A stretch of 11,201 nucleotides of DNA, from UHGV virus genome UHGV-0222504; one strand, 5' to 3'. Origin of the DNA: a virus. This document shows, in pieces, positions 3,001 to 6,000 of the stretch. Positions within the stretch are counted from its first letter, which is position 1, and the number at the start of each line of letters is the position of its first letter. The position numbers are program-made.

Positions 3001-6000
3001 GGAACTTAACCGCTGGTTTCGTGACGGAAGAGGACTTTATGTTCATGTTATTCGTTGGGAGCCAGAAACACAGCGCGTTATCTATCTTCGCAAAGACTAC
3101 CCGCATGAGTGCTTTAGTCCTTTGTGGAAATTCAGGCGTGATTTTGTTGAGTGTGAAGGACCACCAGCACATTGATTCTGCCATTCCGGGACGTTACACT
3201 GTTCAGGCACCTTATAAAGCGGGTGCCGGGATTGGCGTCCTGGAATTGATCAAGGCGATATATGACGCGCCAGCGTCTTTTTTATCGTCCGCATTTGCTC
3301 ACATCAAAGTTATGGTGGGCTGGGCGGGGGCATCGAAAGATGCGCCGGTTTCCTTGATCACCGGTTACGCCAACCCCGTTCAGTTCACCACCAGCGAAAT
3401 TGGCGTTTCCGGTGGTGGAAGTATTTCACCGATCAAGGAGGCTGCCATCATGGCTACTGTCCCAGCCCTCACTCGTCTGAATGATGAAGACTTACATAAA
3501 CTCAGTTATGTAACAACTGCACTACGTGCTCTGCGCAAGGTAACTCTTTCGGATCCGCAGGCACATCAGGTTCTGGTAGAAACCCTTCTTAACTTGCAGG
3601 CTGAACGTATTCGTCTGGCGGATAAGGCTAATTTTCATATTCACCGTCTCCTGAATATCAGCGGAGGGCATCGTCATGCTTAATCCGTTGCTCCTCAACA
3701 TTTACCGTTTATTTCAGCGTAAAAAAATATCAACACCCACAGTTGGGCAGTGGTACACCACGCCAGCAGGGCATGTTCTACGTGTCAGCCTGGTTGACCG
3801 TGAATGTCAGAAGGTGATTTGTGAACCGCTGGGCCGTAATTACCGCGTCAGTATGCCGCTTATAGCCTTTCGCTCCGGAAAAAACATGAAGCATCTCGGA
3901 GGTGCAGCATGAGTATGGAGCTGATGGTTAAAGCGATGAAAATTCGAGTGGGTAATCCATTGCGAAAACTGGTTCTGATCAAGCTGGCTGATAATGCCAG
4001 CGATCAGGGTGAGTGCTGGCCCAGCTACCAGCATATTGCTGACCAGTGCGAGATTAGCAAACGTTCTGTGATGAATCATATTGCGGCCCTTTGTGAGTCC
4101 GGGCTGGTAAAAAAAGTCACCCGGAAAGGTGAAAAAGGTAACTCAAGTAATATCTATCTCCTTCATCTGGATGGTGCAGGAGATTCACTAGGGGGTAGTG
4201 CAAATAATTCACTATCTGGTGCAGCAAATTCACCAGGTAGTGCAGGAGTTGCACTAGGGGGTAGTGCAGGAGATTCACCCAGAACCAGTCACTCTTTTGA
4301 ACCAGTCAAAGAACCAGTCAATGAACCAATAGCTGTTGGTGCATCTGCTGATGAGTCTGTGCGAGTTCGTTCAAACCGACCGGAATACTCTCCGGAGTTT
4401 GAGCAGGCATGGCTGGCATATCCCAAACGTGCTGGTGGCAATTCAAAATCTGCAGCCTTCAAAGCCTGGAAAGCCCGTTTGAATGAGGGGGTAAACCCCG
4501 AAACCATGCTGGAAGGTGTGAAACGCTATGCGGGCTGGGTATCTGCGATGGGTAACAGCGGCACACAATTTGTGAAACAGGCTGTCACGTTCTTTGGTCC
4601 GGATCGTCATTTCGAAGAATCCTGGGAAGTTCCTGCGGTATCTGCAGCCAGACGTGAGGACCCGTACTTCAAAGCCAGTTACGACAACGTGGACTACAGC
4701 CAGATCCCGGCAGGATTCAGGGGGTGATCATGAGTCTTTTGAATGAAGTTCAGAAATTCATTGAAGCCCATCCGGGGTGTACTTCCGGAGACATTGCGGA
4801 TGCTTTTGCAGGTTACTCACGGCAGCGCGTTCTGCAGTGGGCGTGTGGCTCACCGTTGTGAAGGAGATACACGCAGACATTTCCCACGCCTGACTGAGAG
4901 AGCGCAGGAGCCGGAACCACAACCAGTTCGTGAAACCAGACCTGTGCGCAATTTCTATGTCGGCACTAACGACCCGCGGGTGATTTTGTGCCTGACCCGC
5001 CAGGCGGAAGAACTGGAGTCCAGGGGCTTATACCGTCGTGCTGCAACGGTGTGGATGGCGGCATTCCGTGAAAGCCACTCCCAGCCAGAACGAAATAATT
5101 TTCTGGCGCGTCGTGAACGGTGTTTACGGAAAAGCAATAAGCGGGCTGCATCAGGTGAAGAGTGGTATCTGTCAGGGAATTACGTGGGGGCTTAATGAGT
5201 AATAAATATTGCCAGGCGCTGGTGGAACTGCGGAACAAACCAGCCCATGAACTGAAGGAAGTGGGCGATCAGTGGCGCACGCCGGATAACATTTTCTGGG
5301 GAATTAACACCCTGTTTGGTCCGTTTGTTCTGGATCTGTTCACTGACGGTGATAACGCCAAATGTGCCGCGTATTACACGGCGGAAGACAACGCGCTGGC
5401 ACATGACTGGTCAGAACGTCTTGCGGAGCTTAAAGGGGCTGCCTTTGGTAATCCCCCATACAGCCGCGCCAGTCAGCATGAGGGGCAATACATCACTGGC
5501 ATGCGTTACATCATGAAGCATGCCAGTTCCATGCGTGATAAAGGCGGGCGCTATGTTTTCCTGATCAAAGCTGCCACCAGCGAAGTGTGGTGGCCGGAAG
5601 ACGCAGACCATATTGCTTTTATTCGCGGGCGTATTGGTTTTGAACTGCCTGCCTGGTTTATCCCGAAGGATGAGAAGCAGGTGCCGACAGGCGCTTTCTT
5701 CGCTGGTGCTATTGCTGTTTTCGACAAGACCTGGAAGGGACCGGCAATCAGCTACATCGGGCGCGATGAACTTGAGGCATGTGGTGAGGCCTTTCTGGCG
5801 CAGGTTCGCCAGCAGGCGGAAAAACTGGTCAGGGAGATGGCGGCATGACGACGTTAACTCAATGCCAGCAGCAGGTGCTGGATATGCTGATTTCTTACCA
5901 GAAAGAACGTGGCTTCCCGCCAACCAATCAGGAGGTGGCAACCATGCTGGGATACCGTTCAGTGAATGCAGCGGTGGAGCATCTTCGCGCACTGGAGAAA

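What the first reader, a model, noticed from the sequence alone, without database searches (positions are those of the whole stretch)
3264..3452. Terminator-like hairpin and a strong internal ribosome-binding site inside a 278-codon ORF
A GC stem-loop followed by T6 (3264-3285) sits inside the 2847-3683 ORF, and about 150 bp further on an AAGGAGG sequence (3435-3441) precedes an in-frame ATG (3450) with ideal spacing. Either the long ORF is real and contains an internal regulatory terminator and an internal start making a 77-aa C-terminal product, or two genes were fused by loss of a stop. In lambda the equivalent position between cII and the replication genes is where early transcription is attenuated.
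Basis: partly seen in the sequence, partly recalled or inferred. Interest (0 to 1): 0.45.

Follow-up and report, generated by a model that had tools for sequence, protein, structure and literature searches.

The report
P4-type RNA immunity module in SfV
The hairpin and the internal ribosome-binding site are real parts of an already known phage RNA switch: a small RNA with its own terminator, an antisense RNA, and the start site that the antisense RNA masks, all lying inside a long open frame that seems to be kept open without being conserved as protein.

Summary
Both observed features are in the sequence at the stated coordinates. The window is about 99% identical to Shigella phage SfV, and the ORF is SfV orf37, annotated 'ash family protein'.

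A C4/CI-type antisense RNA lies at 3308-3395.

Two single-stranded boxes of the C4 RNA pair with 3400-3406 and with 3431-3441, which is the AAGGAGG site, and with decoy copies in the small RNA. Across 64 distinct relatives these pairings hold in 97-99% of cells, with many compensatory changes and 15 loop specificities.

Only 3450-3680 (77 aa) evolves as protein in the annotated frame. 3195-3449 does not. 2996-3175 encodes a hidden 59-aa DUF4222 protein in another frame. Yet the long frame avoids stop codons and is ATGA-coupled to the upstream gene.

Satellite phage P4 has the same layout (nested eta/kil genes, seqA, CI, seqC) and the identical junction GGAGGCTGCCATCATGGCTAC. This is a new member of a known kind.

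The parts
2847..3683 (+). 278-codon open frame (SfV orf37, 'ash family protein'). It is analogous to P4 eta: probably a transit ORF that is kept open but is not conserved as protein.
   Evidence: ORF listed. 99.4% identical to SfV orf37. ATG 2847 overlaps the stop of the upstream CII-like gene (ATGA). No stop sites in this frame against 31 in the other two frames across 64 relatives, and 0 against 12 and 9 in the N-terminal part. The codon test does not fit protein-level constraint over 2847-3449. The P4 frame is equivalent.
2996..3175 (+). Hidden 59-aa gene (GTG start) of the DUF4222 family, in the +2 frame relative to the long ORF. Its TGA overlaps the -35 box.
   Evidence: Synonymous fraction 0.71 in this frame against 0.07 in the annotated frame; the control CII-like gene gives 0.63. 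Pfam DUF4222 51.1 bits (cut-off 27) and PHROG 1343 full length, E 1e-36. Conserved in e14 with a strong SD.
3172..3200 (+). Putative sigma-70 promoter internal to the long ORF: TTGATT, 17 nt, TACACT, with the transcript start near G3207. Analogue of P4 PLE and of PisrK.
   Evidence: Read from the sequence; 8 of 12 consensus matches, which is below the scan threshold. Other variants have TTGAAA-17-TATAGT or TTGACT-17-TATATT at the same distance from the isrK 5' end. Function is inferred from Gifsy-1 PisrK (PMC4825925) and P4 PLE (PMC10111431).
3207..3283 (+). isrK / seqA-type small RNA (a1 and b1 decoy copies of the C4 targets): hairpin 1 at 3207-3226, hairpin 2 at 3227-3242 with box a1 at 3232-3238, and box b1 at 3247-3255.
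   Evidence: Rfam RF01394, 64.2 bits, gathering score 50, E 3.5e-12. a1-a' has 7 pairs, 6 compensatory; b1-b' has 9 pairs, 6 compensatory; about 98% of cells paired.
3264..3283 (+).
   Evidence: -8.3 kcal/mol. The stem plus T-run is kept with eight different loops and four stem versions in relatives. 96.9% of cells paired, but only 1 pair with a change on both sides. The homologous IsrK terminator was shown experimentally to be partly read through (PMC4825925).
3308..3395 (+). C4 / P4-CI-type antisense RNA: closing stem 3313-3329 with 3374-3390, hairpin 3330-3343, hairpin 3344-3365 carrying the 12-nt loop b' (3349-3360), and single-stranded box a' (3367-3373).
   Evidence: Rfam RF01695, 82.3 bits, gathering score 45, E 2.2e-15. 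Closing stem has 17 pairs, 7 compensatory, 99.9% paired; inner hairpin has 4 of 5 pairs compensatory.
3400..3406 (+). Target box a2 (UUGGCGU), presented in the loop of hairpin 3386-3392 with 3411-3417.
   Evidence: a'-a2 has 7 pairs, 6 with compensatory changes. Duplex energy -10.3 kcal/mol. The hairpin is 99.6% paired.
3431..3441 (+). Target box b2 (GAUCAAGGAGG), which contains the Shine-Dalgarno AAGGAGG. Analogue of P4 seqC and P1 b2.
   Evidence: 11 contiguous pairs with loop b'. 15 loop types each match their own SD patch (mean 10.5 bp against 5.4 for non-cognate pairs). 6 of 11 pairs are compensatory and 98.7% of cells are paired. Duplex energy -15.2 kcal/mol.
3450..3683 (+). 77-aa protein gene at the position of P4 kil, in frame with the long ORF. 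Predicted helical hairpin, function unknown. Its end overlaps the ATG of orf38 (3676).
   Evidence: Synonymous to nonsynonymous 135:36, with variable sites at codon positions 3 > 1 > 2. The junction GGAGGCTGCCATCATGGCTAC is identical to the P4 kil start. phi191 annotates its gene from the equivalent ATG. AlphaFold pLDDT 84 with two helices. No relatives found.

Best explanation
Positions 2847-3683 hold a P4-type RNA immunity module (isrK/seqA, C4/CI, seqC) with eta/kil-like nested reading frames. It sits between the CII-like gene and the replication genes of an SfV-like prophage.

Proposed mechanism, by analogy with P4, P1 and Gifsy-1:
- An internal promoter (about 3172-3200) starts transcripts at about 3207. 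These lack the long ORF's start codon, so they are untranslated.
- Many of these transcripts stop at the weak intrinsic terminator (3264-3283), giving a 77-nt IsrK/seqA-like RNA. The rest read through and are processed to a C4/CI-like RNA (3308-3395).
- Boxes a' and b' of the C4 RNA pair with a2 (3400-3406) and b2 (3431-3441, the AAGGAGG site). This masks the start of the 77-aa gene at 3450. Through the overlapping starts 3676 and 3909 and through polarity, it would also silence orf38 and the replication initiator gene.
- The short RNA carries decoy copies a1 and b1 and can titrate the C4 RNA.
- Transcripts from the upstream early promoter are translated through the whole module in the long frame, which starts at ATG 2847 and is coupled to the CII-like gene's stop. 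Ribosome transit keeps the terminator and the antisense structures from acting.

Shown here: the RNA families, the covarying pairings, the frames and the codon signatures. Inferred: the promoter activity, RNA processing, termination, repression and the effect of translation.
For: - Rfam matches above gathering score for isrK (3207-3283) and C4 (3308-3395). The same pair is found in all 12 other loci tested and in P4 itself.
- Covariation on 64 distinct sequences: 98.5% of cells paired against 37-45% when partners are slid, with 26 pairs changed on both sides. b'-SD, a'-a2, b1-b' and a1-a' each have 6 compensatory pairs.
- 15 loop specificities each match their own SD patch.
- Only 3450-3680 shows a coding signature in the annotated frame (135 synonymous to 36 nonsynonymous). 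3195-3449 gives 77:680 and 2847-3194 gives 40:190. Codon-position diversity is flat at 0.245, 0.231 and 0.240.
- Stop codons avoid the long frame: 0 of 31 distinct sites and 0 against 12 and 9 in the N-terminal part. In 22 of 41 distinct contexts the ORF's first ATG forms an ATGA-type overlap with a stop in the upstream frame; in about half of these (about a dozen; open 86-382 codons) that frame is a substantial gene such as the CII-like, AlpA-like or Rha-like genes, in the rest it is open for only 0-23 codons.
- In P4 the frame is open over 217 codons. An ATG with 197 codons to the stop overlaps the ORF88 stop, and an ATG with 65 codons to the stop is preceded by the identical GGAGGCTGCCATC.
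- The Pfam PF10554 match in P4 falls on the obsolete 'cI protein' CDS, which holds the C4 match.
- Published mechanism for P4 eta/kil as summarised in PMC10111431, and for the Gifsy-1 IsrK terminator read-through and orf45/anrP control in PMC4825925.
Against: - There are no expression data for this phage. Promoter, 3' ends, processing and repression are all inferred.
- The promoter matches only 8 of 12 consensus positions.
- The terminator stem is short (5 bp) and shows little covariation of its own: 3 of 5 pairs never vary.
- The stop-avoidance statistic assumes that sites are independent and that the three frames are equally likely. About a quarter of the sequences were collected with a protein query.
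- In SfV the transit frame must overlap a DUF4222 gene for 180 nt, which P4 does not require.
- The 77-aa product is unrelated to Kil or Icd, so the downstream biology may differ.
- In Gifsy-1 the short RNA activates translation, whereas in P4 seqA is a target for termination. Which applies here is unknown.
Confidence: 0.8

Rival explanations
1. The 278-aa ORF encodes a genuine two-domain regulatory protein (Ash domain plus a C-terminal module). The hairpin and the SD are by-products of its coding sequence, or at most features embedded in a real gene.
For: More than 100 database clusters of continuous 278-aa 'ash family proteins'. Pfam PF10554 match at 67.8 bits. The frame is open in all 64 relatives. 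The literature treats Ash as a protein domain of the Bro network (PMC8951638, PMC10111431).
Against: The PF10554 match (nt 3195-3476) coincides with the promoter, isrK, C4 and the SD. Synonymous to nonsynonymous counts are 77:680 there, with flat codon-position diversity. The N-terminal third is overlapped by a DUF4222 gene that carries the real coding signature. In phage 06-3462 the 'Ash' frame is split by a frameshift with stops. In phi191 the region is unannotated and contains an in-frame stop. P4's founding 'Ash/cI protein' is the CI RNA locus.
Confidence: 0.07
2. The long frame is merely an accidental open frame over GC-rich, stop-poor structured RNA and is never translated. Only the small RNAs and the 77-aa gene are functional.
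For: No amino-acid constraint upstream of 3450. 20 of 64 relatives also have a second frame without stops in the 246 nt upstream. Relatives with stops exist. Gene callers differ on where the ORF starts (PHROGs 3960 and 4908 start at residues 103 and 156).
Against: 0 of 31 distinct stop sites fall in this frame (naive P about 3.5e-6). The frame is open for 120 further codons across a gene in another frame. The motif ACGCATGA, which couples the ORF to the upstream gene, recurs in SfV-like and P4-like elements. In P4, translation of the equivalent eta frame is reported to prevent termination (PMC10111431).
Confidence: 0.1
3. The product does not start at 3450. Ribosomes initiate at the invariant AUG 3312 (the position of Gifsy-1 orf45) and read in frame into the C-terminal part, giving a 123-aa protein. 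The SD at 3435 would then serve mainly as the antisense target.
For: AUG 3312-3314 is invariant and corresponds to the first AUG of orf45, whose translation is required for anrP expression in Gifsy-1 (PMC4825925). PHROG 4908 models a 123-aa product. 16 distinct stop sites avoid this frame between 3312 and the ATG.
Against: There is no SD before 3312, and that AUG lies in the closing stem of C4. AAGGAGG at an 8-nt spacing is a near-ideal start signal. P4 Kil starts at the equivalent ATG (PMC10111431). phi191 and an ENA gene call start there.
Confidence: 0.15

Closest known systems
Satellite phage P4 immunity region (PLE, seqA, cI RNA, seqC) with the nested genes eta and kil
   Same: The order of parts is the same. 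Rfam isrK and C4 both match in P4. A long frame starts at an ATG overlapping the upstream gene's stop (…ACGCATGA…). An internal in-frame ATG has its SD inside the antisense target. The 21-nt junction GGAGGCTGCCATCATGGCTAC is identical. There is a constitutive promoter inside the long frame, and translation of the long frame is reported to prevent termination (PMC10111431).
   Different: The host element is a lambdoid phage, where the module lies between a CII-like gene and O-like replication genes rather than in P4's left operon. The long frame has an extra 120 codons or so that overlap a DUF4222 gene. The internal product is 77 aa and unrelated to the 65-aa Kil. The specificity boxes differ.
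Gifsy-1 isrK-orf45(STnc1160)-anrP locus of Salmonella
   Same: A 77-nt IsrK with a Rho-independent terminator that is partly read through. A conserved, processed RNA of about 80 nt lies downstream. The downstream start is sequestered. The short RNA is complementary to the downstream RNA (PMC4825925).
   Different: In Gifsy-1, orf45 ends at an AUGA overlapping anrP. Here the equivalent frame runs in frame into the next gene. The downstream gene is an antirepressor there and an orphan 77-aa protein here. The genomic position also differs.
P1/P7 immI operon (c4 RNA, icd, ant1/ant2)
   Same: The logic is a1,b1 / a',b' / a2,b2, with b2 covering the ribosome-binding site of the first gene. The antisense RNA is cut from the same transcript as its target. 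Specificity swaps give heteroimmunity (Rfam RF01695 and RF03163; PMC12197685; own knowledge of Citron and Schuster 1990).
   Different: No Icd or Ant homologue is present here. An IsrK-type terminator after a1/b1 is not a described feature of P1.
Lambda tR1 attenuation
   Same: A terminator within the early rightward transcription unit ahead of the replication genes.
   Different: Lambda tR1 is Rho-dependent, lies between cro and cII, and is overcome by N (own knowledge). It involves no antisense RNA, no internal promoter and no nested frames.

Membership tests
C4 antisense RNA (Rfam RF01695; includes P4 CI) | Covariance-model score at or above the gathering threshold | tested here: met
   82.3 bits against 45, full length 1-87
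C4 antisense RNA (Rfam RF01695; includes P4 CI) | A long closing stem enclosing two hairpins, supported by covariation | tested here: met
   The closing stem has 17 pairs, 7 compensatory, 99.9% paired. Hairpin a has 4 of 5 pairs compensatory.
C4 antisense RNA (Rfam RF01695; includes P4 CI) | Boxes a' and b' are complementary to downstream a2 and b2, with b2 covering the ribosome-binding site | tested here: met
   11 bp onto GAUCAAGGAGG and 7 bp onto UUGGCGU. 6 compensatory pairs in each. 15 cognate loop-SD types.
C4 antisense RNA (Rfam RF01695; includes P4 CI) | A stable processed RNA (RNase P and others) that represses in trans | not testable with these tools
   Needs northern blots or RNA-seq and genetics.
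isrK / seqA / c4-a1b1 small RNA (Rfam RF01394, RF03163) | Covariance-model score at or above the gathering threshold | tested here: met
   isrK 64.2 bits against 50. RF03163 did not reach its threshold in the window but does in relatives.
isrK / seqA / c4-a1b1 small RNA (Rfam RF01394, RF03163) | Carries copies of the C4 targets (a1, b1) | tested here: met
   a1-a' has 7 pairs and b1-b' has 9 pairs, each with 6 compensatory pairs.
isrK / seqA / c4-a1b1 small RNA (Rfam RF01394, RF03163) | Ends in a Rho-independent terminator that is partly read through | tested here: inconclusive
   The hairpin plus U6 is present and conserved. Termination and read-through were not measured.
isrK / seqA / c4-a1b1 small RNA (Rfam RF01394, RF03163) | Has its own promoter directly upstream | tested here: inconclusive
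   TTGATT-17-TACACT matches 8 of 12 positions. Three sequence versions keep the boxes at the same spacing. Activity was not tested.
P4 eta/kil nested genes | The long frame starts upstream of the internal promoter and is coupled to the upstream gene's stop | tested here: met
   ATG 2847 lies within ACGCATGA; the same motif occurs in P4-like elements.
P4 eta/kil nested genes | An in-frame internal start whose SD lies in the antisense target | tested here: met
   ATG 3450. The junction is identical to the P4 kil start.
P4 eta/kil nested genes | Translation of the long frame prevents termination | not testable with these tools
   Only indirect support here: stop codons avoid this frame.
P4 eta/kil nested genes | The internal product is homologous to Kil/Icd | tested here: not met
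   The 77-aa product shares only the residues MAT.P with Kil. It has no family or fold match.
Pfam PF10554 Phage_ASH, taken as a protein domain | HMM score above the gathering threshold | tested here: met
   67.8 bits against 26, residues 117-210.
Pfam PF10554 Phage_ASH, taken as a protein domain | The matched segment evolves under protein-level constraint | tested here: not met
   77 synonymous to 680 nonsynonymous differences. Codon-position diversity is flat. A frameshifted relative exists. In P4 the match falls on the CI RNA locus.

The most novel reading that the evidence does not exclude
In SfV-like lambdoid phages a P4-type small-RNA immunity cassette has been inserted directly upstream of the replication genes. 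An RNA-based second immunity would then gate replication through the chain 77-aa gene, orf38, O-like gene. Its specificity boxes (at least 15 types) would be exchangeable and define RNA heteroimmunity groups among lambdoid and Stx prophages. The 'Ash domain' (Pfam PF10554) would not be a protein domain at all but the translation of this RNA cassette, kept open only so that ribosomes can pass through it.
Probability: 0.3. Interest if true: 0.55.

Novelty: new member of a known kind. Interest (0 to 1): 0.35.

Why it matters
The finding explains two odd signals inside an ORF as parts of a well-studied RNA switch, the P4 / P1 / Gifsy-1 type. It also shows that this switch sits in the early operon of a serotype-converting Shigella phage and, from the similarity search, in about 300 phage records including many Stx phages.

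The practical consequence is for annotation. The labels 'ash family protein', 'Rha/Ash' and 'transcriptional regulator' on these loci hide two RNA genes, an internal promoter and, in SfV, a DUF4222 gene in another frame.

Studies that use PF10554 as a protein marker, for example as P4 epsilon (PMC8628076), or that call Ash a domain of unknown function (PMC8951638), are in effect detecting the CI/C4 RNA cassette.

If the cassette gates replication or antirepressor genes in Stx prophages, it bears on how prophage induction is controlled.

Tried and rejected
- Motif statistics alone. AAGGAGG occurs once where 1.19 copies are expected, and the hairpin is one of 29 terminator-like sites. These are not informative by themselves.
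- My working conclusion midway was that the 278-aa ORF is purely an annotation artefact. I revised it after three results: stop codons avoid the frame, the ORF start is ATGA-coupled to the upstream gene, and P4 eta/kil has the same layout.
- Function of the 77-aa product. Pfam, PHROGs and NCBIfam gave nothing beyond families built from this same ORF. The protein search found only 8 clusters, all in this context. The AlphaFold model is a helical hairpin, and Foldseek hits against PDB and BFVD are non-specific, with E > 0.1.
- A lower stem flanking the terminator (3254-3260 with 3283-3289) is 89% paired but has little compensatory change, so I did not rely on it.
- The coding frame of 2851-2995 could not be settled. 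Synonymous fractions are 0.32, 0.06 and 0.45 for the three forward frames.
- Forti et al. 1999 (PMC94026) is not held in the library. Its content is cited through PMC10111431 and from my own memory.
- No paper was found on SfV orf37.
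Full report
**Observation.** The window is 99.4% identical over the ORF to Shigella flexneri phage SfV. ORF 2847-3683 is SfV orf37, labelled 'immunity region' in one record and 'transcriptional regulator' in the other. Databases hold more than 100 clusters of continuous 278-aa 'ash family proteins'.

The hairpin is GACGC-GCCA-GCGTC at 3264-3277, followed by T6 at 3278-3283. AAGGAGG lies at 3435-3441 and the in-frame ATG at 3450, with an 8-nt spacing and 77 codons remaining.

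Taken alone, neither motif is statistically notable. The window has 29 terminator-like sites against 12 expected, and this hairpin is a minimal one. AAGGAGG occurs once where 1.19 copies are expected.

**What is there.** Rfam finds two RNA families inside the ORF, both above their gathering scores:
- isrK (RF01394) at 3207-3283, 64.2 bits.
- C4 antisense RNA (RF01695) at 3308-3395, 82.3 bits.

The Pfam 'Ash' match (residues 117-210, nt 3195-3476) coincides with a putative promoter (TTGATT-17-TACACT at 3172-3200), isrK, C4 and the SD/ATG.

**Related loci.** A pattern scan for the junction GGAGGCNGCCATCATGGC in viral contigs returned 120 loci. In these the same upstream module precedes many different downstream genes: 64/65 aa Kil/Icd-like, 77 aa, 120 aa, and 181-214 aa Rha-type. 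Rfam finds the isrK plus C4 pair in all 12 further loci tested, and RF03163 'a1, b1 targets of C4' overlaps the isrK matches in five of them.

**RNA-RNA pairing.** The 12-nt loop b' of C4 (3349-3360) is complementary to 3431-3441 (GAUCAAGGAGG, 11 bp, -15.2 kcal/mol) and to 3247-3255 in the small RNA. The single-stranded box a' (3367-3373) is complementary to 3400-3406 and to 3232-3238.

Among 87 distinct module sequences there are 15 different loops. Each pairs with its own SD patch over 8-12 bp (mean 10.5). Non-cognate combinations give a mean of 5.4 bp.

On a 64-sequence alignment (A1) the full set of pairings is formed in 98.5% of cells, against 37-45% when the partners are slid. 26 pairs show changes on both sides. 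The four intermolecular helices each have 6 compensatory pairs.

The terminator stem is kept with eight different loop sequences and four stem versions, always followed by a T-run. Its own covariation is modest: 3 of 5 pairs never vary.

**Coding tests.** Among 66 distinct full-length ORFs, synonymous to nonsynonymous codon differences against the window are:

| Segment | Synonymous | Nonsynonymous |
|---|---|---|
| 2847-3194 | 40 | 190 |
| 3195-3449 | 77 | 680 |
| 3450-3680 | 135 | 36 |

Only the 77-aa part evolves as protein in the annotated frame. Codon-position diversity across the RNA part is flat in A1, at 0.245, 0.231 and 0.240.

In 2996-3175 the +2 frame carries the coding signal: synonymous fraction 0.71 against 0.07 for the annotated frame, with 0.63 for the control CII-like gene. 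That ORF (GTG start, 59 aa) is a DUF4222 protein and matches PHROG 1343 over its full length. Its TGA overlaps the -35 box.

**Relatives without the long frame.** In Stx phage 06-3462 the module lies upstream of an annotated Ant gene. Stops lie 8 codons before the Ant ATG, and the 'Ash' frame is split by a frameshift. In phi191 no CDS is annotated over the module, and the Rha-like gene is annotated from the ATG equivalent to 3450.

**The long frame is nevertheless not an accident.** In A1 there are 31 distinct stop-codon sites in the two other frames and none in the ATG frame over the 246 nt upstream (naive P about 3.5e-6). The N-terminal 120 codons have 0 sites against 12 and 9. In 22 of 41 distinct contexts the frame's first ATG forms an ATGA-type overlap with a stop in the upstream frame. 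In about half of these (about a dozen; open 86-382 codons) that frame is a substantial gene (CII-like, AlpA-like or Rha-like). In the rest it is open for only 0-23 codons. The motif ACGCATGA recurs.

P4 explains this. In P4 the obsolete 'cI protein' CDS matches PF10554 and contains the C4 match. isrK lies just upstream, and epsilon belongs to a different Pfam family. The P4 frame is open for 217 codons. An ATG with 197 codons to the stop overlaps the ORF88 stop; I take this to be eta. An ATG with 65 codons to the stop is preceded by CAGGAGGCTGCCATC; I take this to be kil. The junction is identical to window 3437-3457.

PMC10111431 summarises Forti et al. 1999 as follows. A constitutive promoter lies inside eta. 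Its transcript terminates early through the CI and seqA interactions and yields CI RNA. Kil is a truncated Eta translated on read-through. eta is coupled to the upstream alpA homologue. Translation of eta prevents termination.

For Gifsy-1, PMC4825925 shows that the IsrK terminator is partly read through, that the downstream conserved 'orf45' region yields a processed RNA of about 80 nt (STnc1160), and that the short RNA relieves sequestration of the downstream start. The authors note that IsrK is a structural homologue of P4 SeqA.

**Mechanism proposed.** See the Best explanation section. Identity of the parts and their pairings is shown by computation. Promoter activity, termination, processing, repression of the 77-aa gene (and, through the overlapping starts at 3676 and 3909, of orf38 and the O-like replication gene) and the anti-termination effect of translating the long frame are all inferred by homology.

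**The 77-aa product.** It is predicted as a helical hairpin (pLDDT 84). It has no sequence or fold relatives.

**Verdict.** It is incomplete, because the RNA genes and the promoter were missed, and it is not a conventional protein gene. The lambda analogy is wrong. This is a new member of a known kind. The main value is correcting annotation ('Ash' as translated RNA, the hidden DUF4222 gene) and showing how widespread the cassette is in lambdoid and Stx phages (300 phage records).

Noticed in passing
window 2996-3175; L206 (E. coli K-12 e14, NC_000913.3) 5002-5181: The annotated e14 'cell division inhibitor YmfM' (b1148) is the N-terminal equivalent of the long frame. Inside it, in the +2 frame, lies a 59-aa DUF4222 ORF with a TTG start and the SD AGAAGGAG. 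It aligns far better with the window's 59-aa ORF (score 199) than the annotated frames align with each other (score 83). The ymfM filamentation study cloned the whole ORF fragment, and its text reports no frame-specific mutants. The active SfiC factor could therefore be the DUF4222 protein.
   Followed up: partly
L207 (phage P4, NC_001609) 8168-8584, minus strand: The RefSeq record of P4 still carries a 'cI gene product / transcriptional repressor' CDS over the CI RNA locus. Pfam PF10554 'Ash' matches this CDS, not epsilon, which is PF25738. Work that uses PF10554 as an epsilon marker (PMC8628076) is in fact detecting the RNA cassette.
   Followed up: yes
L156 1195-2052; L093 9650-9667 and 10962-10979: Some viral contigs carry the module in tandem. 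L156 has three C4 and two isrK matches within about 900 nt. L093 has two modules with different specificity boxes about 1.3 kb apart, separated by a 120-aa Rha-like gene whose stop is ATGA-coupled to the next module.
   Followed up: no
window 3676-3912 (orf38) and 2996-3175: The small genes on either side of the module may be distant paralogues. The 59-aa DUF4222 protein weakly matches PHROG 1153, the family of orf38 (E 0.008). A direct BLASTP comparison gives 24% identity over 45 residues, E 0.017.
   Followed up: partly
window 2851-2995: The 145 nt between the CII-like stop and the DUF4222 start show no clear coding signature in any frame, yet they stay open in the long frame. A Salmonella relative has a 6-nt indel and many changes here.
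   Followed up: no
L113 1006-1057 and L087 4747-4798: DicF antisense RNA (RF00039) matches lie a few hundred bases upstream of the isrK/C4 module in two related contigs. An isrN match and an ALIL pseudoknot match occur elsewhere in L106 and L099.
   Followed up: no
window, whole length: Terminator-like hairpins are more than twice as frequent as in shuffled sequence (29 against 12 +/- 3.6). They include strong candidates at 1259-1278 on the minus strand (after the cI-like gene) and at 10981-10997 on the plus strand.
   Followed up: no
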